Origin: an uncultured virus (IMG/VR IMGVR_UViG_3300030673_000007)
Lineage: Duplodnaviria; Heunggongvirae; Uroviricota; Caudoviricetes
Virus record (IMG/VR): IMGVR_UViG_3300030673_000007
Reading direction: 5' to 3' (one strand)
DNA length: 64,000 nt
Shown: positions 79-61,666 of the stretch, one piece after another
Position numbering within the stretch: the stretch's first letter is position 1
Layout: every line of letters starts with the position of its first letter
The notes under the pieces: model-generated
Databases searched by the model: none
Told to the model about the DNA's origin: nothing
The model's input: only the letters and a program-made list of their open reading frames with translations
Program-made: the position numbers and the translations under genes

Positions 79-111
79 CTCTTTCGAGAAACACGGGCCG
101 GGTAGTTGGGG

Positions 112-396
112 TCAGTTGATCTGGATGAAGAGTGCACCGGGAGCGAACCCAGTGCCGTGGTACAGCTGCTCCCGGGTCATGGCCGGGGCGTCGTAGTTGT
201 TCGTCTCGATCATGATGTCCAGCATCCCGTCGAGGCGAGCGGTGAGGTAGGCGACGTCCGCCTTCGCCTTGCGGTAGACGGCGGTGTTCTTGGCGGTGTT
301 CCGTGTGAGCCACCGGGCCTCTGACAGCTTGGCGTCGAGGTCCTTGTACTTGCTGGAGATGGAGTCCAGCAGGGCCTTGGGGAGTGTGCTGCTCAT
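112..396 (-). CDS. Hypothetical protein (MSSTLPK...)
   Basis: ORF with phage-typical GC3 codon bias, abuts upstream gene. Confidence 0.75.
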   Translation of the reverse strand: MSSTLPKALLDSISSKYKDLDAKLSEARWLTRNTAKNTAVYRKAKADVAYLTARLDGMLDIMIETNNYDAPAMTREQLYHGTGFAPGALFIQIN

Positions 397-398
397 GA

Positions 399-524
399 CT
401 ACTTGCCTTCCGTGCAGGTGGAGCAGATGACCGTGACGGCCTTGGAGTAGGAGGGGAACGTGTGGACTGCGGTGGCGATGTTCTCGATCCGCCCGCATTG
501 GGGGCAGTGGAACTGGATGTTCAT
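399..524 (-). CDS. Small zinc-ribbon protein (41 aa)
   Basis: MNIQFHCPQCG...ICSTC, two CxxC pairs; purine-rich RBS upstream; not in ORF track. Confidence 0.65.
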   Translation of the reverse strand: MNIQFHCPQCGRIENIATAVHTFPSYSKAVTVICSTCTEGK

Positions 525-659
525 GGGGGGAACCTTCCTGTGTTGAGAGAGCCCTTCGCTCTGTAGCCCCTGCGCTGTTGATCAGACTCAGGGTTCCAGC
601 TCAGCATCCATGCCTTGCTGCCAGTGCTTGTCTTCGGGCTCTCTCTTGCTTATGTACCT

Positions 660-688
660 AGCTTAGGTCATGGGAGGGCCCGTGTCAA
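660..688 (-). promoter_or_regulatory. Early sigma-A-type promoter
   Basis: TTGACA-N17-TAAGCT; TTTCAAGAAA at 693-702. Confidence 0.85.
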
Positions 689-806
689 GCTATTTCAAGA
701 AATAGATCGAAGGAGTTTGGGGCAACCCTGCCCCTTCCCGCCCAGCTGGGAGGGCTTGTACCGTTTGTGCTGCGGGGCCCCCCGTACCCAACTAGAGAGG
801 CGCACT

Positions 807-1112
807 GTGGCGACTATCCACATCCACCTCCACCACGACTACCCAGACTCCATCGACAGAAAGCTGGACATCATCATGGCCGACCTCACCGCATTGCAGT
901 CCGCTGTCACTCAGGTCCTGTCCGAGATCGAGGACGCTGTTGCTGCCCTTGCCGATCTCTCCACGAAGGTTGCCAACGGCACCGTCGTACAGGCCGACAT
1001 CGATGCCATCACCGCCAAGCTCACCGGCGCGGTCACCTCGCTGGACTCCGCGGTCGACACCAACGACCCCGACCTCGCCGACACCGATGAGCCGCCTGTG
1101 GAACCCGTCTGA
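807..1112 (+). CDS. Coiled-coil hypothetical protein
   Basis: GTG after GAGAGG; heptad-like A/L/D-rich helix. Confidence 0.75.
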   Translation: MATIHIHLHHDYPDSIDRKLDIIMADLTALQSAVTQVLSEIEDAVAALADLSTKVANGTVVQADIDAITAKLTGAVTSLDSAVDTNDPDLADTDEPPVEPV

Positions 1113-1533: not shown

Positions 1534-1536
1534 GGC

Positions 1537-1677: not shown

Positions 1678-1692
1678 GTGGTTTTGAGAAAC

Positions 1693-2245: not shown

Positions 2246-2250
2246 GCGTT

Positions 2251-2424
2251 TCAGGAAACGAACGCTGCCTGCATCCCGAGCTTCACGTCGAGGATCGTCG
2301 AGTCCACGTACTGCGTGATCAGGCGCTCAGCGACGGCGAACTCACCCAACACGATGGTCTCGCTGATCGAGTAGAACGCCACGATGCGGTCGAGCGCGGT
2401 GAGGCGGACAAGGGCGGTGGTCAT
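2251..2424 (-). CDS. Hypothetical protein
   Basis: ORF with GAGAGG RBS; start uncertain (2424 or 2451). Confidence 0.6.
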   Translation of the reverse strand: MTTALVRLTALDRIVAFYSISETIVLGEFAVAERLITQYVDSTILDVKLGMQAAFVS

Positions 2425-3167: not shown

Positions 3168-3260
3168 AGTTTATGGCATGTACCTAGCTTGTGTCAAGCG
3201 AATACTCGATCAATCTTTTTCTGGAAACGACTTGCTATACGCGCGGGCGTGTACTAAGCT
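3168..3260. promoter_or_regulatory. Divergent pair of early sigma-A-type promoters
   Basis: Minus: TTGACA-N18-TAAACT (3197-3168). Plus: TTGCTA-N17-TAAGCT (3232-3260). TTTCTGGAAA between them at 3218-3227. Confidence 0.8.
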
Positions 3261-4377: not shown

Positions 4378-4469
4378 AGAGTACCAAGCTAGGGACAGAC
4401 TGTCAAGGGTTATTTCAAGAAACTAATGTCCAGATTGGCTTGACTATGCGCGTGCGTGTGTACTAAGCT
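4378..4469. promoter_or_regulatory. Divergent pair of early sigma-A-type promoters
   Basis: Minus: TTGACA-N17-TACTCT (4406-4378). Plus: TTGACT-N18-TAAGCT (4440-4469). TTTCAAGAAA at 4413-4422. Confidence 0.8.
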
Positions 4470-4977: not shown

Positions 4978-5020
4978 CTGCGTTGTGCCCTAAGTTGTCG
5001 AGGTTGTTTCTCGAAATGAC

Positions 5021-7405: not shown

Positions 7406-8367
7406 GGCAGCAACCAGCTACCAGCGGAGCCCTGTGGGGGGTCCACGGGCTCAGCAGCACCTTCCGTGGGTACTGGTATGGGTCCGGGGCTGGGAGGGGC
7501 TGAGATCGAAGAATCTGCCTCGTCCTTGGCGATCTGGGCCTGTGAGCGGAAGTCTCCGAAGAGCACCCCGCCGAAGTTCTCGGACACGACCACGCCCTTC
7601 TCCGGGCCGAAGTGGGCCTGTCCGACGTTCCGGGTGAGTGCGATTCGTCGATCCCCCTCGGCCATGGCTTCCTCAAAGTGGGCCTGTCCGACGTCGAAGC
7701 CGTGGAAGGGCTCCCGGATGAAGCCACGAGAGCTGATCTGCCCGCTCCTGTCGACGATCCCCACCGGGCGGGTGCCATTCATCCGCGAGGTGAGCACGAC
7801 CTTCTCCAACACGCCCTCGGAGTCGAAGACCGGCTCGGCGAAGATGACGGTGCCGGGAGCGAAGGAGTGTTCCTCGATGCGCCGGAGCTTCTCAGAATCT
7901 TCTTCGGCCTTGTCAGAGCCGGATTCGTTTCCCGAAAGGTCGTCGAGACCTCTGGAGCTGCGCTGCTCCCGGACCACGGCCACCGGGTCCCGCCAGTCGA
8001 GGAGGGGCCGGGGCTCGAAGATGTCCGCCGTCATGGCGGCATGCGCTTCCTGCCACGCCGAGTTGATGTTGGCCTGTGCCCGCTCGACGATCCCCACCAG
8101 CTCCTCATCGGACTTGTCCAGCCAGTCCAGCTCACCCCACACGCTGGCCGCGAGGTCCTCAAGGTTGGCGATGTCCTCGGGGTACGGGTGTGCCAGCCAG
8201 CGTTCGGTGGCCAGAGCGCGTGTACGGGCAGTGGAGGAGGACTCGATCCACGGGCAGGGGTGGTAGATCGTGCTGATCCCGCCGTTGGACCACACGCAGC
8301 CCTCCACGAGGATCTGGGCGAGGTTGTCCCGGTTGCGGATGAAGAAGCGGCGCGGCGGAGTGGTCAT
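7402..8367 (-). CDS. Hypothetical protein, probably leaderless from a middle promoter
   Basis: ATG at 8367 follows CGTATCAAC; internal VGQAHF repeat. Confidence 0.7.
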   Translation of the reverse strand: MTTPPRRFFIRNRDNLAQILVEGCVWSNGGISTIYHPCPWIESSSTARTRALATERWLAHPYPEDIANLEDLAASVWGELDWLDKSDEELVGIVERAQANINSAWQEAHAAMTADIFEPRPLLDWRDPVAVVREQRSSRGLDDLSGNESGSDKAEEDSEKLRRIEEHSFAPGTVIFAEPVFDSEGVLEKVVLTSRMNGTRPVGIVDRSGQISSRGFIREPFHGFDVGQAHFEEAMAEGDRRIALTRNVGQAHFGPEKGVVVSENFGGVLFGDFRSQAQIAKDEADSSISAPPSPGPIPVPTEGAAEPVDPPQGSAGSWLLP

Positions 8368-9556: not shown

Positions 9557-9856
9557 TCAGGGGGTTGAACGCACGGTGAGGGACGGGTTGATCGAGAGCA
9601 TCGCCTCGGCGTCCAGTGCGACGGCGGTACGGGCTCCCTGTGTGATCCGTGCCACCGAGTCCCGGGACAGTCCGGTGAGCTTCATGATGTTGCGCTCGGG
9701 GATGCCTGCTGCCTTGAGTTCGACCATGAGGGCATCGCGGTCTGCTACGGCGTCCCGGTAGGCGTTGCGGGCGTCGGTGACCGTCTCGGCCTGATCCTTG
9801 AGTTCCGACATCACCATGGCGATGGAGACGCGGTGGACTTGTTTTGTGAAAGCCAT
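9557..9856 (-). CDS. Helix-turn-helix DNA-binding protein
   Basis: RDALMVELKAAGIPERNIMKLTGLSRDSVARI; leaderless after TAGACT. Confidence 0.75.
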   Translation of the reverse strand: MAFTKQVHRVSIAMVMSELKDQAETVTDARNAYRDAVADRDALMVELKAAGIPERNIMKLTGLSRDSVARITQGARTAVALDAEAMLSINPSLTVRSTP

Positions 9857-9964
9857 GTGGGGGAGTCTACACACACGTTTGCCGGGGTGAGTGCACGGAC
9901 GTTTTGGGAATCTGAGATCAGCTCGGAAATGAACTTTCGAGAAACGAGGTGGTGGGGTTCAGAA

Positions 9965-11120: not shown

Positions 11121-11249
11121 GGTGTGCTCTTTCTTGAAACTCAGTGGAGGGCGTTGGAGACGGCGGCGGTGATGACGGTGAAGGCGGTGGTCCCGCCGAA
11201 GAGGATCAGGCACTCGACGGCGAGACGGAGCTTGGACGGGCGGGGCATC

Positions 11250-11852: not shown

Positions 11853-11952
11853 CTCGTTTCCGAAAACAACAAGAGCACCGGTCAGGTAGGTGGCCGGTGC
11901 TCTCGGTACTGGCTGGAGGCTCCACCCCCATGATGTCCCCAGCTGTCTCAGG

Positions 11953-12816: not shown

Positions 12817-12835
12817 CTGTTTCCGGAAACCCGCC

Positions 12836-15380: not shown

Positions 15381-15856
15381 GTAGTTTCGGGAAAGAGGTG
15401 ATCGTCGTTGCGGCACTGGAGCTTCCCGCAGACCTTGCAGCGATCCTCGTCCCGACCCGTGGTGTAGTCGTAGCGTCCCGGCTGCCCCTTCTTGGGGGAT
15501 GCTCCCCACTGTGCAGTCAGGGCGGAGTGCTCTTCCAGCCACTTGGCCTTGACCAGCTCCCACTGCCGGAGAGCCTCGCGAGCCTGCTCAGGGGTCGGGG
15601 GGACGTACCTGCGCTTGGACCTCTGGATGGTCTCCAGCAGGTCGTGCAGCCAAACCTCGTCAGCCTCATCCCACTCGTGGGGTGGAGTCCGGTCCCTGCT
15701 CGTAGCCCAGCGCAGGGCGAAGGTGGCCTCCTTGAGGAAGCGCCGCTCGATCCCGGCTGGGGTCTCAGCGAGCAGCTGCTCGGCCTCCTCAGCAGTCCCG
15801 GTCCAGAGGATGAGTCCCCAGACGTTGGACCAGTGCGGGCTGTCGAAGATGCTCAC
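15377..15856 (-). CDS. Hypothetical protein with C-terminal CxxC..C..H
   Basis: AAGGAGG RBS, GTGA overlap. Confidence 0.7.
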   Translation of the reverse strand: MSIFDSPHWSNVWGLILWTGTAEEAEQLLAETPAGIERRFLKEATFALRWATSRDRTPPHEWDEADEVWLHDLLETIQRSKRRYVPPTPEQAREALRQWELVKAKWLEEHSALTAQWGASPKKGQPGRYDYTTGRDEDRCKVCGKLQCRNDDHLFPETT

Positions 15857-16952: not shown

Positions 16953-16958
16953 CACGTT

Positions 16959-17207
16959 TCAGGAAACGAGCCTCAGCTCCCTTGGCAGGCGGTAGATGAA
17001 CCGGAGCCTCTTGGGCCCACCCGCTGACAGCTCGATGACCAAGTCTCCGATGTTGAAGACCCGCCCGTACAGGCGGATGGGGCGCTCGTTCACAGTGAAG
17101 GGCTGGACCACCGGCAGGAGGCGCTTGTGTCCGTAGACCGTGGTCTCTACCAGCTCCCCCACCAGCGGCCACCACTCGTCCTCGGTGACCGGGGGAAGCT
17201 CAGGCAT
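16959..17207 (-). CDS. Hypothetical protein
   Basis: ORF overlapping previous stop. Confidence 0.65.
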   Translation of the reverse strand: MPELPPVTEDEWWPLVGELVETTVYGHKRLLPVVQPFTVNERPIRLYGRVFNIGDLVIELSAGGPKRLRFIYRLPRELRLVS

Positions 17208-17505: not shown

Positions 17506-17544
17506 GGTTCCTCCTGTTGTGCAAGCTGACCGCTTGATGTCTCT

Positions 17545-17574
17545 AGCTTAGGCCATGGAGATGTCCCAAGTCAA
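17545..17574 (-). promoter_or_regulatory. Early sigma-A-type promoter
   Basis: TTGACT-N18-TAAGCT-AGAGACATC. Confidence 0.8.
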
Positions 17575-42334: not shown

Positions 42335-45300
42335 TCAGGTCACTCCGGCCACACGCCGGATGAACTCGTACGACGAGACTCCCTTGATCCCACTCCCCCA
42401 CGAGGAACAGTGCACCCCGACATGGGTGGGGGTGATCGCGCACGACACGGTGGTCCCGGGCACCCACGACACTCCATCAGGAGAGATGTCTGTCCGCCAC
42501 GTAGTACCCCCAAGGAAGACCAGCCGCTCGTACAGCGGACCATGGGGGTACCCAACCGTTGTGGACTGCGCCCCGGCTACCTGATAGTTCGTCATCACTC
42601 GGGTATCCACGCTGAGGGCCCCATTGTTGGTGAACGACAGCGTGATGAGCTGGGTTCCAGCCCCCGATGTGACTCCGTCGGCGAGGACGAGTCCCCCCAT
42701 GACGTAAGCGCCGTTAGAGCCGTTCAGGCTCAGGTGGGTCACGAACGCGTCTCCGGCGATCAGACTTCCCCCCACACCAGACAGGGGGCGCATCATGGCG
42801 TGCAGTTCGGAGGCTGCGTCCTCTCCGTTGTTGAACACAGACAGGACGTCAGCAGCCTCAGTCCAGACCGCTCGGGCGGTGCCTCCCGACTTGTCGACTC
42901 GCACCCACGCGGCGTCCAGTGAGGCGTTGTTGAACTCATCAAAGGACGTCCAGCCAACCGGGACGTTCCAGCGGCGGTCGCCGATTCCAGCGGCTGGGGC
43001 AACCACGGGGGTCTCGGGATTCGACCCGGACAGTTCGCCTGTCCAGACAGTGACGTTGCGGATCCATCCGGTCTCCGTCCGCGAGTAGAGACCGACCCGC
43101 CCCGTGTTGACTGCTCCGGCAGCCGTGATCGTGACCTGATAGACGTGGTCGACGTAGACGTCGAACAGAGTGGGGAGCACAACGGACTGGTAGACCGACA
43201 GGACGTAGTCGGTGTCCAGCGCGAGTGATGTCGCCATCGTGAACGTCGAGCCCCCGACCCCGTACCTGTCCCACCAGATCTTGGACACTGCGCCTGCCCG
43301 CTGGAGACCGATACCCAGCCCGCCAGCTGCCCACGCTCCGGAGGAGTAGAACCCGACGCCGAGCCCGGTCCCGTCGGCGGTGATCCGGACGGTGCACTGC
43401 ACCGCACGGGCCTTGACCCCCAGATCGGTGTTGAACTCCAGCCAGCTGTCCTGCAAGGTTGAGGTCTGGTTCACGCCATACGCACCACCGGAGGTCCACG
43501 TGCCTGAGCGCGATGTCCACCCGGTGAGGTCGGCCATCCCGGACGCGTCCAGCCTCTTCGTCCAGACAGCCTTCATCCCATCGCTGCTGCCTCCGCTGCC
43601 ACCTGAGGGGGTGACTGGCTCCCACTGGGTGCCGGTGTATCCCAGCACCTTTCCAGAAACAGCTCCAGCGGTGGCGACGTCGGTGAGGGAGTCAAGGGTG
43701 GATGCCCCACCACCTGTGGCGGTATCCCACTTCATCCCCGTAGCTGCGGTGGGGTCGGAGGTCAAGACCTTGCCCGCCGTAGCTGCCACAGGAAGCGTGG
43801 TGGCCCCCGGCATCGCTGCCGTGAAGACGATCTCCGGGATGGTCTGGTAGTTGTCGCCGTTGCTTGCACTGATGTAGATCCGGTAGTGGAGGTAGGCGGT
43901 CGTTGTGGTGACCGCGAAGGACTGGGTCTGTCCGATGAGCCACGTGATGCCGGTGTAGGTCGTCAGGTCCACCCACGTGGTGCCGTCGCTCGACCCCTGA
44001 ATCATGAAGTCTCGGGGGCTGCGGTTGGCCGAGAAGGTGTAGATGCGGATCGAGACGGACACCACCTTGGCGATGGCGGAGAACTGAGCGGCGATCCACT
44101 GGGGCATCGCGTTGGTGCTGTGCCAGTAGGTGGCCGAGTTGCCGTCGAAAGCGTTGCTGGCCTGATTGGCTGGGTTGGCGTCAATGACTGTGGCTGCCGT
44201 GACTCCCACGACGGTCGGTGTGTACTGCGTCCCTGTGGCACTAGCTGTGACGAGGTCGCCAATGGCGACGGGCTGAACCACCGTGGCCGGAGCACCGACA
44301 ACGGCCTTGCCGACGGAGACCCAGTCGGATGCGGTGCCCGGCATGACAGGGGACCCGTAGATCTTGAAGACTCCAGCGGAGCCGCCTGTGCGGGCTCCCG
44401 CAGCCGGTCGGAAGGTGGCTCCCATAGCGGCGTAGTTGCCGACCGTCCACGTCTTGATCAGGAGACCCGCTGAGGAGTAGAGGCTGATCGAAGTGGCGGC
44501 GTACCGGATCTCCCAGACGTCGTCGTTGGTGTCGGACGCCAGCGCCATGGTGTCAGCCAGAACGACCCCTGCGACGTAGCACTTCAGGAGGTTGTTGAAG
44601 ACGTCCCACACCACCCCGTAGAACGAGGGGAGGGCCTCCACGGTGGTCGCGACCGTGGCTGACTGGGTGGAGGAGACGATGCCGATGGCAAGGGCGTCCG
44701 CCACAGTAGTGGTGCTGCCTCGCCACTTCAGGGTCAGGGGGGTGGCGAATATGAAGGTCTCGTTGCTGATCACCGAGGCGACAGCACTGCCCGCGTTGTT
44801 GATCAGGGTGACCACATGGTTGGTGGTGTCCACCGATGCACAGTTGTTCCGAGTGAAGGCGGTGCCGTCGACCCCGGTGGTGGTGCTCGCCGAGCCGGAG
44901 TTCAACGGGTCGGTCATGTTCGAGGTGACACACAACCAGAGGATCCCGTTGCGGAGCATGATCTGGCCGGGCAGGTACGTCTTGCCGGGGGTGTAGCCGT
45001 TCTCGTAGAACACCCCTCCGGATGTCCACAGGGCGTCCCCGTCGGTGACCGAGTTCTTCCGGAGGGCGTCTCCGACAGCGCCGCCTATGGGGAGTGCGCC
45101 TCCGCCCCCTGTCTGGGAGACAGGTACCCACTTGGTGCCGTTGAAGCCAAGCACCTTTCCGGAAACAACTCCGGAAGTGTCGACGTCGGTGGTGAGGCCA
45201 GCGAGGGCGGTGGTGCCTCCACCTGTCGGGGTGGTGGGCACCCACTTGGTGCCGTTGTAGGCGAGCACCTTTCCGGAAACAGCTCCGGTGGTGTCCACAT

Positions 45301-50062: not shown

Positions 50063-50914
50063 TCAGCTCCACGTCGCTGCTTCGGCGAACACCCGGAAGG
50101 CGCTGAGACTCAGCTGTGCGTTGGCGGGGGTGATCCTGCGGAGGGTGAGGACGTCGGAGAGGGCTCCGGGGGCCAGCGTGGCGATGGTCTGCTGTGGCAG
50201 GTAGGACCCGCCGCCGATGGACAAGGTGTGCTGTGCCGGTACCGAGGGGGATCCATCGGTCAAGGACTCCATGGCCACCCGGACGGTGTTCGCCGTCTTC
50301 GCTGCGGCGAGGTTCTTCACCCGGAAGGTGCGGGAGGCAGAGGTGTTACGGGGGACGTTGCCCCAGTCGAAGTACGCCGGGGTGATGCGCTCATCAAGGG
50401 TGGGGTGCCACAGCGCGAGCCGGTCGATGCTCTGGCCTGCGGAAATCTCACCGTAGAGGTGGACAGCTGCGGGGTTGAACCCAGTGCCCAGCCCAGCTCC
50501 TGCGGAGATCCGGACGCCCCGGATCCCGAGGGCTGTGGCCGACTGAGCGTGGAGCCGGTAGTTCGGTACAACCGCCTCGACCACGCTGTAGGTGCCGCCG
50601 AGGTTCGTCCACGTGCCATCGGACCCGTTCGTGGTGTTCGTCGAGGTCTGCACCTGCGCGCTGAAGTTGTCCCTGTCACTGCCCGTGATCCAGTATCCGT
50701 CGAGGTCTCTCTTTTCAGGAAACAGGAGGATCAGGTACCCAGCCTGATTCTGGCTGATGCCGATGTTGATGTAGTCGTCAGCTTCGTTGTTGATCGTGAT
50801 GAGATTGGCGTTGGTCAGCTGCGTCAGAACGCCGGAGTTCATCTTGAAGCCCTGCGTGCCGTCGCGGTCGTATGCCATGCGCCACGAGGGCACGTCGGCG
50901 TAGTTGCCTGCCAT
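50063..50914 (-). CDS. Minor tail protein, paralog 1
   Basis: MAGNYA..SWRMA.D.DGTQ; AGGAG RBS. Confidence 0.8.
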   Translation of the reverse strand: MAGNYADVPSWRMAYDRDGTQGFKMNSGVLTQLTNANLITINNEADDYINIGISQNQAGYLILLFPEKRDLDGYWITGSDRDNFSAQVQTSTNTTNGSDGTWTNLGGTYSVVEAVVPNYRLHAQSATALGIRGVRISAGAGLGTGFNPAAVHLYGEISAGQSIDRLALWHPTLDERITPAYFDWGNVPRNTSASRTFRVKNLAAAKTANTVRVAMESLTDGSPSVPAQHTLSIGGGSYLPQQTIATLAPGALSDVLTLRRITPANAQLSLSAFRVFAEAATWS

Positions 50915-51764: not shown

Positions 51765-54700
51765 TTGAAGTCACCTGCGTTCAGTCCGAGATGGGCGAGC
51801 TGCTGGGTCTTGGTCGTCAGCGAGTTGGTCGCACGCTCAGGCACCGGGTTCTGGATGATGACGTCGCCGAAGGTCACGCTGTTGACCGTGGTGTTGCCAC
51901 CGCCCCCGAAACTCGGGCCCCTGCCGCCACCGGGTGAGTTGGTGGGTGCCATGGTCGGCACGAGACCGCCACCGTTGAAGACCAGCTGGCTGCCACCGTC
52001 CTTGGGCTTGCGCGAGGAGCTGGCGGCTGCCGCGAGCAGCTGGGCGTAGGACATGACGCCCGAGTTGAGCTTGACGAGGTTGTCGATCCCGACCCTGTCG
52101 ACGATGCCCTTGCGGACGACGAACTCACCGGGAGTGAGTCGTGCTGCCACGGTGTCGCTGTTGCCATGTCCGGGGACGCCGCCACCACCCGCACGGTGGA
52201 TCTCTCCGCCGTTGTGGGGCGTCTGGGTACCGTCGCCATGCCCTGCACCGAACCCTGCTCCGGCGTTGCCCCAGAAGTCCGTCCACCACTTGCCAATGGT
52301 GTTCTTGACGCCGTCCCACCAACGGCCCCACGCGGTGCTCACACTGTCGACGAAGTCGGTGGCGATCTTGGCCAGATCCCTGCCGAAGCCGGGGAGCGTC
52401 ACGTTCCAGAACTTGTCCCACATGGGACCAATGCCGGAGACCCACTTCTGGATCTGCGCCTTGGCGTTGGCCAGCCACTTCGGGAAGGTGACTGCCCAGA
52501 AGTTGTTCCACGCTGGGCCGATGCTGGAGATCCACGAGCGGACGGCAGCCGACGCGCTGGAGATCCACGCGGGGAAGGTGACCGTCCAGAAGGTGGTCCA
52601 TGCCACCCCGATACCTGCGAACCACTGGGTGACGGCTGCGGATGCCTGCGTGACCCACAGCGGGAAGGTGACCGTCCAGAAGGTGGTCCACGCCGCTCCG
52701 ATGCCTGCGAACCACTGACCCACTGCCAGCGTGGCGCTGGTGACCCACTTCGGGAAGGTCTCGGTCCAGAAGGTGGTCCATGCCGGGCCGATGCCCTCGA
52801 ACCACTTGACGGTGGCTCCCAAGGCGTACCCCGCCCAGTAGGGGAACGTCTTGGTCCAGAAGTCGGTCCACGAGGTGCCAAGGTCGTCGAACCACTTGGT
52901 GGCCCCAGCGCCGAGGTCGTTCCAGAACTTGGGGACCTGCACCCCCCAGTACTCATCCCACAGCTTGCCGAAGTCGCCGAACCACTTGCTGATGCCCCCG
53001 GTGAGGTCGTTCCAGAACTTGGGGACCTGCACCCCCCAGTACTCATCCCACAGCTTGCCGAAGTCGCCGAACCACTTGCTGATGCCCCCGGTGAGGTCGT
53101 TCCACCACTTGGGGAGGGTGGTGCCCCAGAACTCGTTCCACCCCTTGACGAAGTCGGTGAAGAACTGGTCGATGTCCTCCTTGGCGGAGCCGAAGAATCC
53201 CACGAGGGCTCCGATGAGCCCACCGATGATCGCGCCGGGGACTGCCCCGATGCCACCGAACAGCAGGCCGACAGAGCCACCGATGCCTGCGCCTGTGGCT
53301 GCCCCGGAGAGGGTGTTGCCTCCGAGCCGCTGGCCGGATCCGTCCTTGCCCTCGGGGGCGTTGTTCGAGATGACGTCGCCCACGATGGTGCCCAGAATCG
53401 ACGCGATGGCCGCGAGCGGGCCACCTGCACCCTTCAGGATCGACGCGAACCCCTTGAGGCTACCGAACCCCTTGATCAGGGTGGAGAAGCCCTTCAGACC
53501 TCCCCCGGAGAGGAGGACCTTGAAGCCATCGAGCAGGCTGCCTAGCCACTTGAAGCCCTTCAGCCCACTGAGGAGCTTGGGCAGCCCCTTGAACAGGCCG
53601 AACAGCTTGCCGAGCTTTCCGAAAAGGAACTTGGCTCCGTCGGCGATCCCATAGAACATCGCCTTGATGAAGCTGAGTCCGGTGTACCGCTTCCCGGTGA
53701 TGCCGAAGAGCTTCATCAGGACGGTCTTCAGCGACTCGAAGAACTTGAGGATGCCACCGGTCTTGTAGAGCTTGATCAGCCACCCGATGAGGTTCTCAAG
53801 GCCGGTGAACTTGGCCACGAAGGACATGGCTCCGATAGCTGCGGCGGCTCCGATGAGCATCTGGAGGACGGGGCCGATGACTGGCATCTTGATGACGGTC
53901 AGCAGGATGTCGAGGAGCCCGTTCAGGGTGTCGAAGAAGACCGCAGTGCCGGGGCCATCCACCAGTGTGGTGATCAGGTCGACGATCTTGATCAGCGAGT
54001 CCACGAACTTGGGGCCAATGTTGGCCTTGCTCAGGGCATCGAACAGTGACGCCAGCTTGGGACCAAGATCGTCGGTGATCTTCTTGAAGATCTCCGTCAT
54101 CTGCTTGATGTTCTTCGGGTCGGCAGCCTGCTTGCCGAACCACTTGAAGAAGGTGCCGAACATCCGGGAGATCTCGGACAGGAGGGGCTTGATGTCCTCA
54201 AGCCATTTCTTGAAAGGAGATCCCTTCTTGGTGGCTGCCTCGGAGGACGCCAGCCAGCCCTCGGTGGTCTTCTGGATACCGTCGGTGATCCAACCACCGA
54301 ACGCCTCCGCCGCCTTGGCGAAGTTGAACAGGGTCTTGGCGATGTTCTTGATGATCTGCCACCACTGGCGCAGCGTCCCGAGGACACCCTTCGACCCGGT
54401 CTCCTTGTCACCCATCAGCCACTTGCTGAGGGACCCGCTCTTGCGGGCCTCCTTGACCATGGCCGCGATGTTCTCGGCACCCTTCTTGAACCCCTTGGCG
54501 AGTTCGATCAGGAATGGCATCGCGATGACGGTGAGGTCCTTGAAGACGCCCCACAGGACGTTCAGCCCGCCACCGATGGCGTGGATCAGAGGGACGTTCT
54601 GCTTGCCCAGCAGGATCAGGTCGCTCTTCCACTCCGGGGAGGAGATCATCCCGATGAACTCGTGGGCGACGTCGCCGAGCGCACCTGCGGTGTCAGACAG

Positions 54701-58124: not shown

Positions 58125-59271
58125 GTTCGCTTCTCGCGATCTGGGCCAAGGTCCACAGGCGTTCGCCCTGAGCGGCGGGGAGGTTGTCCTTGAGCTTCAG
58201 GAAGAGCTTCGCCACGACGGCATCCCAGCTGTGTGCCTGCGGGATGATGCGGGCAGCCAGCTCGCCCTTCTCGTGGGCCTCGTTGCGGTGCTGGAAGACG
58301 TGGATCATCAGCCGGGCGAGGTCTTCGATGGACGCCCGAGCGTTGAACGTTTCTGGAAAATCAGAGCTGACCGGCTCCAGCGTGTAGGCCAGCGGGTAGG
58401 AGTAGGCAGGGTCGAGCCACTGGGTGTGGCCTGCCCAGTTGGTGGCGATGACCGTGCCTCCGGTGCTCATGAACTCCAGCGCCGGGACGTTCTTGCCCTC
58501 ACCCCGGGACGGGGCCAGCAGGCAGTGCTGGACCTTGTAGAACTGGCGGACCACCTCGGTCGGCCAGATGTCGTAGAAGATCCGCAGGGAGGAGAACTCG
58601 TCACCGGTCTCCGGGTCGATGTCCCGGTACAGGTCCTCGATCTTGTGGTGCAGGCCGGGGGCAGTGGTCTTCAGGCTGAGCCGGGCCCAGCGCCAGAACT
58701 CCGCGTCCATGGTGCGCGCGAGCCGGAACGCCTCGATGGTGCGGAAGGGATCCTTGCGCTCGCTGAGCACACCGATCTGGGCGAAGTGGAACTCCTTGGT
58801 GTCCCACTCCCGGTCGAACATGTGGGGCCACTCGGCGGGGTCGAAGCCGCCCTGAAGGACGAACAGCGGGCCGTCGAAGTAGGGCCGGAAGCAGTCCGGG
58901 TCGACGTCGGAGTAGCCGATGAAGGCGTCGAAGTTCTTCAGCCGCTTGCGCAGGTCCTTGCGAGACTTCTTGGCGAGGTTGAGCAGGTTGGAGTACTCCC
59001 ACATGGTCCATGCGACCTTGACCGCTGCGTGGGGTACGACCTCGTCGGGGCACTGGAGGTTGGCCGGGTCGACGTGGTTGATGTAGAGGTCGAACGGAGC
59101 GGCCAGCTCCTTGGTCAGCAGGTTGGCCACGTCCTGCGGGAGGGGGGCGTCCACTGAGGTGGCCTGTAGGTAGACGTCGGCTCCGGCGCGCATCAATGCC
59201 TGCGCCAGTCCGATCCCATCGTTGCCATAGCCGGAGTACCGACTCATCGGTGTGCGGAGCAACACCTTCAT
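58111..59271 (-). CDS. GT-B fold glycosyltransferase (GT4 / Glycos_transf_1-like)
   Basis: SGYGNDG, ERKDP, LLAPSRGEGKNVPALEFMSTG, SWDAV. Confidence 0.85.
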   Translation of the reverse strand: MKVLLRTPMSRYSGYGNDGIGLAQALMRAGADVYLQATSVDAPLPQDVANLLTKELAAPFDLYINHVDPANLQCPDEVVPHAAVKVAWTMWEYSNLLNLAKKSRKDLRKRLKNFDAFIGYSDVDPDCFRPYFDGPLFVLQGGFDPAEWPHMFDREWDTKEFHFAQIGVLSERKDPFRTIEAFRLARTMDAEFWRWARLSLKTTAPGLHHKIEDLYRDIDPETGDEFSSLRIFYDIWPTEVVRQFYKVQHCLLAPSRGEGKNVPALEFMSTGGTVIATNWAGHTQWLDPAYSYPLAYTLEPVSSDFPETFNARASIEDLARLMIHVFQHRNEAHEKGELAARIIPQAHSWDAVVAKLFLKLKDNLPAAQGERLWTLAQIARSEHADR

Positions 59272-59307
59272 CTTGGACCTCCTTGGGTCTCTCTTTTTGG
59301 AAACTGC

Positions 59308-59817
59308 TTAGGGTACGTTCACGCCGTAGGTCATGCGGCCCATGTAGGCCCCGTCGGTGTCCCGGATGGGAGACAGGGTGGGTCCGTCCACGCGGTGGCT
59401 CCCAGCGACCACCACGCCCGTCTTGGAGGCCACCTGATCGGTGGTGCCCCAGATGTATGGCATCCCCTGCCGGGTGCCTGCGTCGGTGAGGTGCAGGTGC
59501 TTGTCGAGGAGCTTCTGGATGCGCTCGATCTTGGACTTGGCGTCGTTGACCTTGACCGAGCGGTCCTCGTTGCGGGTGGGGTCGGCCCAGATGTCGATGT
59601 AGACCCGGGGGAAGCGCATCGTGTTGTGGTCGTTGGGGGACGTCCACGTGCCGTCCTCATTGATCACGAGCAGGCACTTGCCGGTGTTCTCCACCTTCAC
59701 GTTGATCGGGTTCTCGTCGAAGATCCACGTGTCCCAGCTGATCGAGCGGCCCAGCAGCTCCCGCAGCCCAGCGTCCTGCGCGAGGTAGTTGCGGATGGCC
59801 AGAGAGAGGTCGGTCAT
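59308..59817 (-). CDS. Tail terminator-like protein
   Basis: Position; AIRNYLAQD, PRVYIDIWAD. Confidence 0.65.
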   Translation of the reverse strand: MTDLSLAIRNYLAQDAGLRELLGRSISWDTWIFDENPINVKVENTGKCLLVINEDGTWTSPNDHNTMRFPRVYIDIWADPTRNEDRSVKVNDAKSKIERIQKLLDKHLHLTDAGTRQGMPYIWGTTDQVASKTGVVVAGSHRVDGPTLSPIRDTDGAYMGRMTYGVNVP

Positions 59818-60299
59818 TTCCGGAGTCCTTCCAAGTATCGGAGCGCGGACTGAATCCTGCTCACTGAGTCCCGGAAAGCCCCCAGTCCGGTATTGCACGA
59901 GTAGCACAGTAGGCCTCGAACACAGGCCCCACAGGAACGCTCTCCGGGGCAACAGGAATGGTCATGATCTACTGCCAACCGACGGGGAAGGCCGGTCTTC
60001 TGGTGGACGGCTGTCTCCGGCTCCTTACAGACCGCACAGCACCCGTTCTGGGATTCGAGCAGCGCGTCGTACTGGGCAGGGGTGAGGCCGTACTTGGAGA
60101 GCAGGTGGTATCCGTGGAGGTAGTCAGGGTTGCCCCTGCGCCACTTGGCATGAGTCTCCGCCGTGGCCTCTCGCGTGCTCTCGTACTGAGCCGATGACCT
60201 CCTGTTGCAACAGCTGATGCACTCAGCTCGGTAGCCCTTGCGGTACTTGTAGAACTCGGTCAGGTCCTTGACCGCACCACACATGGTGCAGCGCTTCAC
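59814..60299 (-). CDS. Endonuclease VII-like homing endonuclease
   Basis: KYGLT..QY..LLESQNGCCAVC, LAVDHDH, VRGLLC..CNTGLG. Confidence 0.9.
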   Translation of the reverse strand: MKRCTMCGAVKDLTEFYKYRKGYRAECISCCNRRSSAQYESTREATAETHAKWRRGNPDYLHGYHLLSKYGLTPAQYDALLESQNGCCAVCKEPETAVHQKTGLPRRLAVDHDHSCCPGERSCGACVRGLLCYSCNTGLGAFRDSVSRIQSALRYLEGLRK

Positions 60300-60673
60300 T
60301 TCCGGAGTCCTTCCAGCATCGCTTCCACCCACAGGGGGTGCAAGTCAGCCAATGGTCTCATAAAGTCGTGGTCGCCACGGGCTGCGGACTTCCCCACCCA
60401 GTGGGTGCCCCGGCGCTTCTCGTAGATGGCGTAGTCGACCGGGCCAGCTCCGCCGTACTGGATCTCACCCTCCCACGTCTCTCCGCCTCCTGAGACTGAG
60501 ATCTTGCCGGACGCCTTCAGGGCTCCGGACTCCACGTGGACAGCGGCCTGAGTCTGGGCGAAGCCGAAGTCGAGCACAGCGTGCAGTGCCGCCTTGGCCT
60601 TCATGGTGGGCATCATCATGAGGCGGTCCAGCTCGCGCTCCACGTCGGACCAGTCGGTGGTGACCTCGATCAT
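60296..60673 (-). CDS. HK97 gp10-like head-tail protein
   Basis: VHVESGALKASG, DYAIYE, DFMRP. Confidence 0.7.
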   Translation of the reverse strand: MIEVTTDWSDVERELDRLMMMPTMKAKAALHAVLDFGFAQTQAAVHVESGALKASGKISVSGGGETWEGEIQYGGAGPVDYAIYEKRRGTHWVGKSAARGDHDFMRPLADLHPLWVEAMLEGLRK

Positions 60674-61122
60674 GGGACGAAGTCCTCAATGGGCTCTTCG
60701 GACGGCCAGTTCTCGCCGGTCAGCTCCTGACCGGTCTCGATGATCTGGACCTCGATGTGGTGCCTGTCGGCGAAGGCCACGACCTCGTCAGGGATCGAGC
60801 GGATCTCGAAGGTGCCAGCCACCGGGATCGCTCCGCGCTCGTTGGGGATGGTCACGATGCGGTCCCCGGCCCTGATGGGGGCGTAGGGGCCTGTGAGCAT
60901 CACGCCCACCCGGTCGGGTGCCTTGCCCGCGACCATGGCAGGGAGTGCGTCCTTGCCCTCGCGGATGAAGTTCATGTCGAGTCGGCACCGCAGGAACTGG
61001 AGAGCGTCGTTGATCGCCGGGTCCGGGTCGGTGGCCTGCGAGTAGGCCATGGTGGCGACACCGTCGTCAACGGTCAGCGTGAGTCGCTCGACCCGCACTG
61101 CGGAGTTGAACAGGTGCTCCAC
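60670..61122 (-). CDS. Head-to-tail stopper-like protein
   Basis: IRAGDRI, HHIEVQI; position. Confidence 0.7.
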   Translation of the reverse strand: MEHLFNSAVRVERLTLTVDDGVATMAYSQATDPDPAINDALQFLRCRLDMNFIREGKDALPAMVAGKAPDRVGVMLTGPYAPIRAGDRIVTIPNERGAIPVAGTFEIRSIPDEVVAFADRHHIEVQIIETGQELTGENWPSEEPIEDFVP

Positions 61123-61126
61123 GTCG

Positions 61127-61666
61127 TCACACCCCTTCGACGATCACCAAGGCGTTGGGGTCCCAGCCGAAGGTGGTCGAGAGGCGGCGGTCCACGGGGG
61201 ACAGGTACTCCACGTTTCCGGAAAGGTGTCCGGCGATGAAGGTGCCGTCGTGCTCGAACATCTCGATGCCGCCCCGCTGGAAGTCCCCGCTCGCGCGGTC
61301 ACAGACCGACAGCTGGCCGACGGCCATGTCGAACCACATGATGCCGGTCTCCAGCCCCTTCTGGGCAGCCTGAGCCACCTTCGAGTAGGAGTAGGAGCCG
61401 ATGGACTCGGAGTTGAACGGGGAGGCCTTGGCAGCCTGATACGGAGCGGAGAGGTGGATGGCGTCGGCCATGGAGATGATCGCGAAGTCAACCAGCTGCT
61501 GCTGGTCAGCCGTCAGCAGCTCGGGGTCGAAGATGCAGGTCCCGATCTTGAACAGCAGCATGGCCTGAGGGATGGCGGAGGAGGCGATGAACGTTTCAGG
61601 AAATGAGGCTGCGGGCCTGCCTGTGAACGCCGCGATCATCTCCCGGTCGTAGGTCTTGTATGCCAT
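61127..61666 (-). CDS. Head-to-tail adaptor-like protein
   Basis: SESIGSYSYS motif; position. Confidence 0.75.
   Translation of the reverse strand: MAYKTYDREMIAAFTGRPAASFPETFIASSAIPQAMLLFKIGTCIFDPELLTADQQQLVDFAIISMADAIHLSAPYQAAKASPFNSESIGSYSYSKVAQAAQKGLETGIMWFDMAVGQLSVCDRASGDFQRGGIEMFEHDGTFIAGHLSGNVEYLSPVDRRLSTTFGWDPNALVIVEGV

What the first reader, a model, noticed from the sequence alone, without database searches (positions are those of the whole stretch)
82..61603. Window-wide array of the palindrome TTTCNNGAAA, beside early promoters and written into coding sequence
Seen: 26 perfect copies counted by eye, starting at 82, 693, 2249, 3218, 4413, 5007, 7928, 9935, 11130, 12820, 15385, 16957, 23773, 26416, 32276, 38676, 40251, 41810, 43650, 45156, 45270, 50713, 54206, 58350, 61215 and 61594. 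There are also about a dozen near matches (e.g. 1682, 9842, 11857, 14291, 19554, 22126, 34530, 53616, 59294). The site is often extended to GTTTCNNGAAAC. In the early region it lies 3-6 bp upstream of the -35 box of 11 promoters. Elsewhere it sits inside polA, dnaB, the sigma-28-like gene, the helicase, tail fibre, tape measure, glycosyltransferase and adaptor genes, using A/T-ending codons that this sequence otherwise avoids. A rough base-composition estimate predicts well under one copy by chance. Established: bacterial parS (GTTTCACGTGAAAC) and Noc sites have the same TTTC/GAAA arms with a 4-bp spacer, and mycobacteriophage L5 spreads repressor stoperators through its genome. Inference: this is the site of a dimeric protein that both controls early promoters and coats or organises the whole phage chromosome. 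Candidate binders are the HTH proteins at 9557-9856 (which has sites at its own start) and 36289-36531, or a host factor.
Basis: partly seen in the sequence, partly recalled or inferred. Interest (0 to 1): 0.88.

Follow-up and report, generated by a model that had tools for sequence, protein, structure and literature searches.

The report
Dispersed promoter palindrome in actinophage
A 10-base palindrome that sits just upstream of nearly every early promoter of an uncultured high-GC phage has also been written dozens of times into its genes through rare synonymous codons, which suggests that one DNA-binding factor recognises the whole phage chromosome.

Summary
TTTCNNGAAA occurs 26 times in the window, against 0.15 expected from dinucleotide shuffles. 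Inside genes there are 15 copies, against 0.37 from codon-preserving shuffles. The real unit is TTTYNNRAAA with symmetric YG flanks.

There are two classes of site. Twelve of 13 sigmaA-type, mostly leaderless promoters carry the motif, mostly 3-4 nt upstream of TTGACA (centre about -44). About two thirds of the sites have no promoter and lie inside genes. These were made by synonymous changes to rare codons. They are conserved in an 85%-identical relative (11 of 12) but turned over in more distant ones.

The motif is lineage-specific in a family of about 125-kb actinophages, and I found no enrichment in 301 sampled actinobacterial genomes.

My best reading (about 0.4) is an operator for a small phage-encoded dimeric regulator. 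The leading candidate is the BldC/Xis-like winged-helix protein at 36289-36531, because close homologues of it track the motif across lineages. The parS analogy fails on spacing and on the lack of a ParB. The closest published analogue is the unexplained 17-bp dyad repeat of Cluster O mycobacteriophages.

The parts
82..91 (.). Motif copy, promoter-linked. On the - strand: TTTCTCGAAA-gag-TTGACA-N17-TAAGATAGAGACATG (leaderless start).
693..702 (.). Motif copy, promoter-linked (- strand, 4-nt gap to TTGACA).
1682..1691 (.). Relaxed copy (TTTCTCAAAA on the - strand), promoter-linked.
2249..2258 (.). Motif copy, promoter-linked (- strand, leaderless).
3218..3227 (.). Motif copy shared by two divergent promoters: the + strand promoter with its -10 block at 3255, and the - strand tandem promoter.
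4413..4422 (.). Motif copy in a divergent promoter region. It has a 6-nt gap to TTGACA on the - strand. The + strand promoter -10 block starts 51 nt downstream of the motif start.
5007..5016 (.). Motif copy, promoter-linked (+ strand promoter, TTGACG).
7928..7937 (.). Intragenic copy, in my CDS call 7402-8367 (-).
9935..9944 (.). Intergenic copy about 80 nt upstream of the HTH gene 9557-9856. A relaxed copy at 9842-9851 overlaps codons 2-5 of that gene.
11130..11139 (.). Intergenic copy 9 nt upstream of an ATG with no Shine-Dalgarno sequence.
11857..11866 (.). Relaxed copy (TTTTCGGAAA on the - strand), promoter-linked.
12820..12829 (.). Motif copy, promoter-linked (- strand).
15385..15394 (.). 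Motif copy, promoter-linked (- strand). It overlaps the 3' end of my CDS call 15377-15856.
16957..16966 (.). Motif copy, promoter-linked (- strand).
17538..17595 (-). The one promoter of this class without the motif (TTGACT-N17-TAAGCTAGAGACA). Coordinates are approximate.
23773..23782 (.). Intragenic copy, 32 nt into CDS 23275-23814 (-). Conserved in G004.
26388..26425 (.). Pair of copies (exact at 26416, relaxed at 26388) between the RecA-like gene and gene 25176-26342. The pair is conserved in G004.
32276..32285 (.). Intragenic copy in DNA polymerase I. Codons TTT CGT GAA here, against TTC CGN GAG in 6 of the 7 relatives outside the window clade.
38676..38685 (.). Intragenic copy in the DnaB-like helicase.
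40251..40260 (.). Intragenic copy in the FliA/WhiG-like sigma factor gene 39618-40364.
41810..41819 (.). Intragenic copy in the SNF2 helicase. It is the only window site also kept in G005.
43650..43659 (.). Intragenic copy in a repeat unit of tail fibre gene 42335-47047.
45156..45165 (.). Intragenic copy in a tail fibre repeat unit. Not independent of 43650 and 45270.
45270..45279 (.). Intragenic copy in a tail fibre repeat unit.
50713..50722 (.). Intragenic copy in tail gene 50063-50914.
54206..54215 (.). Intragenic copy in the tape measure gene. Codons TTC AAG AAA here, against TTC AAG AAG in relatives with the same residues.
58350..58359 (.). Intragenic copy in the glycosyltransferase-like gene.
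61215..61224 (.). Intragenic copy in gene 61127-61666.
61594..61603 (.). Intragenic copy in gene 61127-61666. Codons TTT CCT GAA here, against TTC CCN GAG in relatives.
36289..36531 (-). Candidate binder gX: an 80-aa BldC/Xis-like winged-helix protein with a conserved (S/T)RQHAYR helix.
   Evidence: Pfam HTH_17 E=6e-5, below the family cut-off. AF2 pLDDT 79. Z 7.8 to BldC-DNA and 6.3 to Pukovnik Xis. Co-occurs with the motif across lineages.
9557..9856 (-). Second candidate binder g20: a long helix plus a C-terminal HTH, next to an SMC-like ATPase gene.
   Evidence: It is present in every lineage compared, including motif-free G007.
35394..36062 (-). ECF-like sigma factor candidate (regions 2 and 4). 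Context for the switch away from the sigmaA promoters.
39618..40364 (-). FliA/WhiG-like sigma factor candidate.

Best explanation
TTTYNNRAAA, with the extended half-site YG-TTTC, is the binding site of a small dyad-symmetric DNA-binding protein encoded by the phage. The most likely binder is the BldC/Xis-like winged-helix protein at 36289-36531 acting as two head-to-head subunits. The coiled-coil HTH protein at 9557-9856 is the alternative.

At 12 of 13 sigmaA-type, mostly leaderless promoters in the small-gene arm, the site is centred near -44, directly beside the place where sigma region 4 and the alpha C-terminal domain sit. A protein bound there would switch these promoters together. I think it most likely shuts them off when the phage's own sigma factors take over.

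The same protein also occupies about 30 promoter-less sites per genome that selection has written into coding sequence. This gives it a genome-wide distribution on phage DNA, for organisation, protection or titration.

Shown: enrichment, promoter geometry, DNA-level selection, conservation, symmetric lineage-specific flanks, and co-occurrence with gX.

Inferred: that a protein binds the site, which protein it is, the direction of regulation, and any role of the intragenic copies.
For: - Enrichment: 26 copies against 0.15 expected. Fifteen in CDS against 0.37 from codon-preserving shuffles, with 0 of 2000 reaching 15. Strict N2 spacing.
- Promoters: 12 of 13 carry the site, 10 of them at a 3-4 nt gap from -35.
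- Conservation: 11 of 12 aligned sites are intact in G004, which is 85% identical. Motif bases are identical at 95 of 96 positions, against 421 of 480 in the flanks. The background for keeping those eight positions is 39.7%, P=3e-4.
- DNA-level origin: the sites arose by synonymous changes to rare codons where relatives keep the same residues.
- No second conserved element lies around 42 unique non-promoter sites. About 33 of 50 sites in G003 have no sigmaA-like promoter on either side.
- Flanks are symmetric and lineage-specific: YG|TTTC in the window clade and G005, CA|TTTC in G013, A|TTTC in Magritte. Promoter-linked and intragenic sites share the YG flank.
- The motif is lineage-specific within the family.
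- The motif is not enriched in 301 sampled Actinomycetota genomes. The best case is 42 against 6 control copies in 7.5 Mb (this sample includes ten genomes flagged unpublished).
- gX co-occurrence: close gX homologues (E<1e-8) occur in 6 lineages, and 4 of these are motif-enriched (window clade, G005, G426, G013). None of 14 lineages without one is enriched. Fisher's exact test gives about 0.003 by my own arithmetic, with phylogeny ignored. G013 shares gX and the motif even though Magritte and G007 are closer by capsid identity and have neither.
- gX has a BldC/Xis/MerR-type DNA-binding fold.
Against: - No binding data exist, and no RNA data could be laid.
- G008 has a gX homologue with the same helix type but only 1-2 copies. 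G009 is ambiguous.
- The co-occurrence rests on few lineages and is confounded by relatedness.
- BldC and Xis relatives bind direct repeats as monomers or head-to-tail multimers, as I recall. A head-to-head dimer on a 10-bp palindrome would be unusual for this fold.
- Early promoters must fire before any phage protein is made, so an element fixed at -44 in nearly all of them fits a host component at least as well.
- Magritte has a similar element (TTTCAGAAA) upstream of -35 but no gX.
- The same composite (motif, 3-4 nt, TTGACA, -10) occurs in at least 117 unrelated viral contigs, most of them low-GC.
- The role proposed for the intragenic sites is not tested at all.
Confidence: 0.4

Rival explanations
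1. The motif is an UP-element-like promoter module read by the host RNA polymerase alpha C-terminal domains, or by a conserved host factor that docks beside sigma region 4. The T-tract, four bases and A-tract just upstream of -35 would boost the phage's early promoters. The intragenic copies would be extra polymerase-capture sites that concentrate host polymerase on phage DNA, or they would have some unrelated use.
For: - TTT-N4-AAA equals the 3' ten bases (TTTTNNNAAA) of the E. coli UP consensus AAAWWTWTTTTNNNAAA, whose subsites are centred near -42 and -52 (PMC2412878, passages read). Here the AAA lies at about -41 to -39, because the gap to -35 is 3-4 nt in 10 of 12 cases.
- The element sits at the same place in distant relatives that probably have different hosts: G013 and Microbacterium phage Magritte.
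- The composite with TTGACA and a -10 occurs in at least 117 unrelated viral contigs. Those hits look more like real promoters than hits to a reversed-motif control: TG upstream of -10 in 59 of 97 against 30 of 87, and at least 5 of 6 matches to TATAAT in 65 of 97 against 44 of 87.
- A few conserved host promoters in Actinomycetota carry TTTYNNRAAA 3-4 nt from TTGAC.
- Early promoters need no phage protein.
Against: - C at position 4 and G at position 7 are strongly preferred: 26 of 36 copies in the window.
- The flanks are symmetric and change together between lineages. An alpha-CTD site does not predict this.
- The 5' half of the UP consensus is absent. The sequence upstream of the motif is GC-rich.
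- Twenty-eight of 50 sites in G003 are intragenic, with no promoter on either side, yet they are conserved and made by synonymous change. A promoter module does not explain this.
- Close relatives G007 and others have strong promoters but no copy of the motif.
- The composite is no commoner than its control in 401 Actinomycetota genomes.
Confidence: 0.27
2. The motif is the site of a host nucleoid-associated protein or transcription factor. The phage would exploit it as an activator at promoters, or use the many sites to soak up a silencer.
For: - The site is AT-rich in a 64% GC genome.
- The density on phage DNA is about one site per 2-3 kb. The densest low-control case in the sampled host phylum is one per 180 kb. 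A host protein would therefore be drawn to phage DNA.
- Magritte, a relative, encodes an Lsr2-like protein according to its annotation.
Against: - No sampled actinobacterial genome shows a regulon-sized excess.
- The host is unknown.
- The motif lacks the TpA steps that Lsr2/H-NS-type silencers prefer, as I recall.
- The lineage-specific symmetric flanks and the presence or absence among close relatives fit a factor that travels with the phage better.
Confidence: 0.13
3. The motif is the target of a dimeric DNA enzyme rather than a regulator. One example is the Toprim protein at 13368-14279, which resembles Topo VI-A/Spo11, a family that I recall cuts with a 2-base stagger. That stagger would match the 2-bp centre of the palindrome.
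For: - The nearest named clusters in the ESM Atlas carry TOP6A-Spo11_Toprim (score 0.89, 191 shared features).
- The PHROG family is labelled DNA topoisomerase.
- Among the genomes compared, the gene is found only in the window clade, which has the densest sites.
- Phages Phobos and Ppu-503 carry a homologue beside their terminase genes. Each has a single motif copy, and in Phobos it sits at bases 2-11 of the record.
Against: - G005, G013 and G426 are motif-enriched without this gene. For G426 the gene's absence was not tested.
- The family has at least 8000 members in many phages and prophages, so it is not tied to this motif.
- No Pfam hit supports a catalytic domain.
- The Atlas score is below 0.9 and is only a lead.
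- Promoter geometry is not explained.
Confidence: 0.04
4. The motif is a by-product of base composition, codon use or repeated protein motifs.
For: Three of the 26 copies lie in repeat units of one tail fibre gene and are not independent.
Against: - Dinucleotide and codon-preserving shuffles reject this.
- All three reading frames are used.
- Rare codons are used.
- The site is conserved beyond its flanks.
Confidence: 0.01

Closest known systems
17-bp dyad repeats of Cluster O mycobacteriophages (TGTTCGGNNNCCGAACA; PMC4351075, abstract and passages read)
   Same: Both occur in lytic-looking actinophages. Both are dyad-symmetric with a variable centre. Both have more than 30 copies spread through the genome and denser towards one arm. 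About a third or more of the copies lie inside ORFs. The authors predicted that a dimeric protein binds the site, and its function is unknown.
   Different: The sequence and length differ (10 bp against 17 bp). [quoted passage not shown] Here 12 of 13 promoters carry the site at a fixed distance from -35. Here the intragenic copies can be shown to arise from synonymous changes and to be conserved.
Stoperators of Cluster A mycobacteriophages such as L5 (recalled; also mentioned in the discussion of PMC4351075)
   Same: Dozens of short repressor sites spread across a phage genome.
   Different: Stoperators are asymmetric, oriented with transcription, mostly intergenic, and serve lysogenic silencing. 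This site is a palindrome and is often intragenic. No integrase or immunity repressor was seen among the 174 proteins scanned.
KorB operators (OB) of IncP plasmid RK2 (recalled)
   Same: Both are palindromic operators of a mobile element. Some copies lie immediately upstream of -35 boxes and others far from any promoter. One protein acts as a global regulator and in DNA organisation.
   Different: KorB is a ParB-family protein with about a dozen sites. No ParB domain was found here, and there are about 50 sites.
E. coli UP element (consensus AAAWWTWTTTTNNNAAA; PMC2412878, passages read)
   Same: A T-tract, spacer and A-tract directly upstream of -35. The position of the AAA is within 1-3 bp of the -42 subsite.
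   Different: Only the 3' ten bases match. C and G are preferred at positions 4 and 7. The flanks are symmetric. Most copies are nowhere near a promoter.
parS/ParB and Noc sites
   Same: TTTC and GAAA arms in inverted orientation.
   Different: The spacer is 2 bp rather than 4 (the N4 count is 0). No ParB is encoded in the parts scanned. The sites are dispersed and promoter-linked.
BldC, phage Xis and RacA: minimal MerR-type winged-helix DNA binders
   Same: The candidate binder gX has this fold: Z 7.8 to BldC-DNA, 6.3 to Pukovnik Xis and 5.1 to RacA-DNA. As I recall, RacA binds about 25 dispersed palindromic sites on a chromosome.
   Different: BldC and Xis bind direct repeats, as I recall. 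RacA has a long coiled coil that gX lacks. Z values under 8 can be a common arrangement only.

Membership tests
ParABS centromere (parS/ParB) | Palindrome with TTTC and GAAA arms separated by 4 bp (consensus recalled). | tested here: not met
   TTTC-N4-GAAA occurs 0 times in the window, against 26 for N2.
ParABS centromere (parS/ParB) | A ParB protein (ParB N-terminal domain plus HTH) encoded by the element. | tested here: not met
   There is no ParB-domain hit among 90 window proteins at E<=0.001 or 84 further proteins of the same phage at E<=0.01. The only hit is a weak RepB-HTH match, E 0.0077, for the g20 orthologue. The genome is about 84% complete, so an unseen gene is possible.
Cluster A stoperators | An asymmetric site whose orientation follows the direction of transcription. 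| tested here: not met
   The site is a palindrome, with the same counts on both strands.
Cluster A stoperators | A temperate phage with an immunity repressor and an integrase. | tested here: inconclusive
   No integrase or repressor family appears among the 174 proteins scanned. Part of the genome has not been seen.
UP element (alpha-CTD site) | An A/T-rich element directly upstream of -35, with subsites near -42 and -52. | tested here: inconclusive
   The position of the proximal part is met in 12 of 13 promoters. The distal AAAWWTW half is absent, because the upstream flanks are GC-rich.
UP element (alpha-CTD site) | Occurs and acts only next to a promoter. | tested here: not met
   Twenty-eight of 50 sites in the 104-kb relative record are intragenic. 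About 33 have no sigmaA-like promoter on either side.
UP element (alpha-CTD site) | Bound by the RNA polymerase alpha C-terminal domain. | not testable with these tools
   Needs in vitro transcription or footprinting.
Dispersed dyad repeats of lytic actinophages (Cluster O type, a descriptive class) | A dyad-symmetric short repeat, more than 30 copies per genome, spread through the genome, with a sizeable share inside ORFs. | tested here: met
   There are 35 exact and 50 relaxed copies in 104 kb, 28 of them intragenic.
Dispersed dyad repeats of lytic actinophages (Cluster O type, a descriptive class) | Same repeat sequence, or homologous phages. | tested here: not met
   The sequence differs. 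The nearest named phage is Microbacterium phage Magritte (PolA 48% identical), not a Cluster O phage.
HTH_17 / BldC-Xis-like winged helix (for candidate binder gX) | Match to the Pfam family above its curated cut-off. | tested here: not met
   PF12728 gives E=6e-5 and 23.6 bits, against a cut-off of 27.
HTH_17 / BldC-Xis-like winged helix (for candidate binder gX) | Strand-helix-helix-wing fold of the minimal MerR-type domain. | tested here: inconclusive
   The AF2 model has pLDDT 79 and the expected order of elements. The best match is Z 7.8, rmsd 2.3 over 54 residues, to BldC-DNA. Foldseek gives no match at E<=0.001.

The most novel reading that the evidence does not exclude
The phage tags its own chromosome about every 2-3 kb with a site that is essentially absent from GC-rich host DNA. 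One small BldC/Xis-like protein reads all of these sites. At the early promoters it acts as the common switch beside sigma region 4. At the roughly 30 sites written into genes it nucleates a genome-wide scaffold. That scaffold would mark phage DNA as self, for compaction, protection or polymerase capture. This would be a lytic-phage counterpart of KorB or RacA that evolved by recoding genes.
Probability: 0.2. Interest if true: 0.8.

Novelty: new variant of a known kind. Interest (0 to 1): 0.6.

Why it matters
Dispersed dyad repeats in lytic actinophages have been known since the Cluster O work, but they remain unexplained.

This case adds three things that make the question testable:
- A fixed geometry at nearly every early promoter.
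- Direct evidence that the intragenic copies are selected at the DNA level, against codon preference.
- A named candidate binder whose presence tracks the motif across lineages.

If a phage protein binds these sites, it would be a global regulator with a genome-wide address system. If the host polymerase binds them, it would define an UP-like element for high-GC Actinobacteria and would leave about 30 promoter-less copies to explain.

Tried and rejected
- Expression data: the look-up of sequencing runs listed 24 peat-metagenome runs, all kept as contigs, and no RNA holder was listed. I did not use read laying, because contigs cannot show transcript ends.
- Complex prediction, which I wanted for a g20 homodimer, was not available.
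- g20 fold: Foldseek found no PDB match at E<=0.001. The profile search of PDB gave only repeat-driven TAL-effector hits, which I regard as spurious.
- Profile search of PDB with gX found nothing below E 0.7.
- Host identification: the endolysin found no relative in genome contigs. Thymidylate synthase gave only a handle for an actinobacterial genome.
- Phage sigma promoter idea (GAAAC as an ECF-type -35): there is no conserved second element around 42 non-promoter sites, and lone half-sites are not enriched.
- The g29 Toprim protein as the motif's enzyme: kept only as a minor rival.
- Literature: the string TTTCNNGAAA gave 0 papers. A search on Microbacterium phage, inverted repeat, promoter and leaderless returned nothing relevant in the listing. 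A search for the Phobos genome paper did not find it in the library (listing only).
- The search of earlier findings returned nothing for this genome.
- G009 (3 exact copies, 5 relaxed, GC 54%) is too weak to count either way.

Full report
**What the window is.** The window has 64% GC. By my own codon-model gene calls, nearly all genes lie on the - strand. These calls are not curated and the start codons are uncertain. Pfam and PHROGs identify the following:
- A siphovirus-type tail module, with tape measure 51761-56176 and tail fibre 42335-47047.
- A replication module, with SNF2 helicase, DnaB-like helicase, DNA polymerase I, clamp-loader-like proteins and a RecA-like recombinase.
- A lysis region.
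- From about 17 kb down to position 1, an arm of small genes of unknown function.

Several families are typical of actinobacterial phages (DUF6011, DUF6003, DUF732). The nearest named phage is Microbacterium phage Magritte, 133 kb, with PolA 48% identical and a syntenic replication module. IMG/VR holds the same phage as a 104-kb record (G003), an 85%-identical relative (G004), and a large family of roughly 125-140-kb relatives. Runs that hold the sequence are peat metagenomes. The host is unknown.

**The observation.** All 26 coordinates are exact matches, against 0.15 expected.
- TTTC is rare, with 62 copies. Half of them sit in the palindrome. Spacing is strict: N2 gives 26, N1 gives 5, and everything else gives 0-1. 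The inverse arrangement gives 0.
- Codon-preserving shuffles give 0.37 copies inside genes, against 15 observed.
- One-mismatch sites are also in excess, 44 in total against 5.6 expected.
- The N1 sites are really one-mismatch N2 sites, so the unit is TTTYNNRAAA. There are 36 copies in the window, 50 in G003 and 30 in G004.
- Half-site-symmetrised flanks prefer Y at -2 and G at -1.

**Two classes of site.** A conserved -10/start block, TAAGMTAGRKACA, marks 13 promoters in the window. Each has TTGACA or a near variant 17 nt upstream, and in several the transcript would start at the ATG itself.
- Twelve of the 13 promoters have the motif upstream. In 10 the gap to the -35 hexamer is 3-4 nt, which puts the dyad centre near -44.
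- One copy (3218) serves two divergent promoters.
- One promoter (near 17550) has no copy.

In the 104-kb record G003 the 50 sites divide as follows:
- 10-12 are linked to such promoters.
- 5 lie within 45 nt upstream of a start codon.
- About 6 are otherwise intergenic.
- 28 are intragenic.

Intergenic DNA makes up about 8% of the record and holds 22 of the 50 sites. A position-weight test found no sigmaA-like promoter on either side of about 33 sites. An alignment of 42 unique non-promoter sites from three genomes shows no second conserved element within 50 nt. The intragenic sites are therefore stand-alone palindromes, not hidden promoters of a recognisable kind.

**Selection at the DNA level.** Against G004 (85% identical over 36.5 kb), 11 of 12 alignable sites are intact. 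Motif bases are identical at 95 of 96 positions, against 421 of 480 in the flanks. Only 39.7% of arbitrary aligned 10-mers keep the same eight positions (P=3e-4). The one changed site became TTTTCGGAAA, which is a relaxed copy.

In G005 (PolA 59% identical) only 1 of 8 alignable sites is kept. That genome has 11 exact and 24 relaxed copies of its own, against 0.7 expected. Positions therefore turn over while abundance is maintained.

Codon-level comparison shows how the sites arise. In PolA the residues F-R-E are encoded TTT CGT GAA in the window and G004, but TTC CGN GAG in six of the seven relatives outside the window clade. The same pattern holds in the SNF2 helicase, the tape measure and gene 61127-61666. 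All three reading frames are used. Three copies in the tail fibre lie in repeat units and are not independent.

**Distribution among relatives.** Exact copies per record, with the reversed-pattern control in brackets:

| Record | Exact copies (control) |
|---|---|
| G003 | 35 (0) |
| G004 | 19 (0) |
| G024 | 13 (0) |
| G023 | 7 (0) |
| G005 | 11 (0) |
| G013 | 11 (0) |
| G018 | 5 (1) |
| G017 | 4 (5) |
| G009 | 3 (0) |
| G022 | 3 (1) |
| G021 | 3 (3) |
| G008 | 1 (0) |
| G014 | 1 (0) |
| G006 | 1 (3) |
| G020 | 1 (3) |
| G007, G010, G011, G012, G015, G016, G019 | 0 |
| Magritte | 0 |

G426 has 22 relaxed copies against 4 for the control. In G013 the consensus is CATTTCNNGAAATG, and at least three copies lie 4 nt upstream of a -35-like hexamer. 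Magritte has six copies of a 9-bp version, TTTC(A/T)GAAA, against 0.08 expected. At least two of them lie 4-5 nt upstream of a -35-like hexamer.

Other lineages carry other palindromes in or near their promoters: GTTACN4GTAAC in G013, GTTAYGCGCTAAC in G007 and GATGACAATTGCAAT in G005. The upstream element is therefore old in this family. Its exact form is lineage-specific, and its spread into genes is strongest in the window clade.

**Is it a host signal?** In 301 sampled Actinomycetota genomes the motif and its reversed control have similar counts. The best low-control case is 42 against 6 in 7.5 Mb, about 60 times sparser than in the phage. That sample includes ten genomes flagged unpublished (G145, G026, G196, G242, G073, G253, G043, G171, G093, G113). 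The statement rests on the whole sample, and none of these genomes is singled out.

The composite motif-N3-4-TTGAC occurs in 111 of 401 genomes, at about control frequency. A few instances recur across species and look like conserved promoters (this sample includes unpublished G073).

The layout TTT-N4-AAA does match the 3' core of the E. coli UP consensus (PMC2412878, passages read). The composite with a -10 occurs in at least 117 unrelated viral contigs, most of them low-GC. A generic UP-like contribution at the promoters therefore cannot be dismissed.

**Who might bind it.** Four proteins in the window have DNA-binding features.
- Two are sigma-like: 35394-36062 is ECF-like, and 39618-40364 is FliA/WhiG-like. 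A sigma factor does not explain a palindrome without a -10.
- g20 (9557-9856) is a long helix followed by an HTH (AF2 pLDDT 80). It has no convincing PDB relative. It sits beside an SMC-like ATPase gene in every lineage examined. In the window, G005, G013 and Magritte a copy of the TTTC/GAAA-type motif lies upstream of it, and in G007 that genome's own palindrome (GTTAGCGCGTAAC) does. Because most early promoters carry such elements, this is weak evidence. g20 is also present in genomes with no copy of the motif.
- gX (36289-36531) is a conserved 80-aa protein between the primase-like gene and the ECF-like sigma gene. It has a conserved (S/T)RQHAYR helix, a sub-threshold HTH_17 match, and a model that aligns best to BldC-DNA (Z 7.8), Pukovnik Xis (Z 6.3), other excisionases, MerR N-terminal domains and RacA (Z 5.1).

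Close gX homologues (E<1e-8) occur in the window clade, G005, G426, G013, G009 and G008. The first four are motif-enriched, G009 is ambiguous, and G008 is not enriched. None of 14 lineages without a close homologue is enriched. By my arithmetic this gives Fisher p of about 0.003, ignoring phylogeny. The pattern does not simply follow overall relatedness. Magritte and G007 are closer to the window by capsid identity (77% and 75%) than G013 (68%), yet they lack both gX and the motif. This is the best lead to a binder, but it is no more than a lead.

**Mechanism.** I commit to a phage-encoded symmetric binder, with gX first and g20 second, that recognises YG-TTTC-NN-GAAA-CR. At -44 it would touch or displace sigma region 4 or the alpha-CTD, and so switch the whole set of sigmaA promoters. 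The gene lies in the replication module beside a phage sigma gene, which fits an early-to-middle switch.

The intragenic sites show that occupancy along the whole chromosome is itself selected. What it achieves is not known: scaffold, protection, titration or polymerase capture are all possible.

The main rival is a host polymerase or host-factor UP-like element. It explains the fixed geometry, and it explains why early promoters have the element before any phage protein exists. It does not explain the preference for C and G, the flanks that co-vary symmetrically, the absence from close relatives, or the 28 promoter-less conserved copies.

**Comparison and novelty.** The closest published case is the 17-bp dyad repeat of Cluster O mycobacteriophages: 34 copies in Corndog, a third of them in ORFs, function unknown, and a dimeric binder predicted (PMC4351075, passages read). 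The present case differs in sequence. It also has a near-universal, fixed-distance link to promoters and demonstrable recoding of genes. I found no paper with the string TTTCNNGAAA. I rate it a new variant of a known kind.

Noticed in passing
window 43-91, 653-702, 2210-2258, 12780-12829, 15344-15394, 16917-16966 and others: The early promoters share a much longer conserved block than a -10 box: CC-TAAGMT-AGRKACAT. In several the ATG of the gene follows at once, so the transcripts would be leaderless. Others continue as CAAGCGGTCAAC.
   Followed up: partly
window 11800-11830, 17520-17550, 36070-36100; G004, G005, Magritte and Phobos loci: The heptamer GGTCAAC recurs 5-15 nt upstream of Shine-Dalgarno sequences and just after promoter start blocks. 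This is seen in the window, G004, G005 and Magritte, and also twice near the start of the Phobos record. It could be a 5'-UTR or late-promoter element. I ran no statistics on it.
   Followed up: no
window 13368-14279 (-): A 303-aa protein with no Pfam hit. Its PHROG family is labelled DNA topoisomerase, and the ESM Atlas places it near Topo VI-A/Spo11 Toprim clusters (score 0.89). Its family has at least 8000 members at more than 50% identity, in phages and in actinobacterial genomes. A 48-nt stretch is 92% identical to Pseudomonas phages Phobos and Ppu-503, where the gene lies beside the terminase genes.
   Followed up: partly
L229 1-14 (Phobos record start); L230 1301-1314 (Ppu-503): Each of these two Pseudomonas phages has a single copy of TTTCAGGAAA. 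In Phobos it occupies bases 2-11 of the deposited record. The homologous place in Ppu-503 is in a long intergenic region. I could not tell whether the Phobos record starts at a physical end.
   Followed up: partly
window 35394-36062 and 39618-40364: There are two separate sigma-like genes, one ECF-like and one FliA/WhiG-like. Both are conserved in Magritte, where they are annotated only as DNA binding proteins.
   Followed up: partly
G005 (L012-L018), G007 (L126-L132), G013 (L119-L125): Each relative has its own enriched palindrome in promoter-like contexts: GATGACAATTGCAAT (12 copies) in G005, GTTAYGCGCTAAC (8) in G007 and GTTACN4GTAAC (8) in G013. In G007 and Magritte the palindrome lies in the spacer between -35 and -10.
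   Followed up: partly
window 1-10000 versus G003 83000-93000: The small-gene arm differs between the window and the otherwise identical 104-kb record G003. Different genes lie between shared promoters, which suggests rapid gene turnover at promoter-flanked cassettes.
   Followed up: no
G003 92185-93414 (outside the window, beyond its left end): The phage encodes a histone-deacetylase-family protein (Pfam E=4e-51). Elsewhere it encodes a beta-clamp, an RlaP-type nucleotidyltransferase and a PNKP-type phosphatase.
   Followed up: no
window 8460-9539 and 9557-9856: A small coiled-coil HTH gene followed by an SMC/RecF-like ATPase gene forms a pair. The pair is adjacent in 7 of the 8 lineages compared (window, G005, G006, G007, G013, G018, Magritte). 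In G008 the two genes lie about 700 nt apart.
   Followed up: partly
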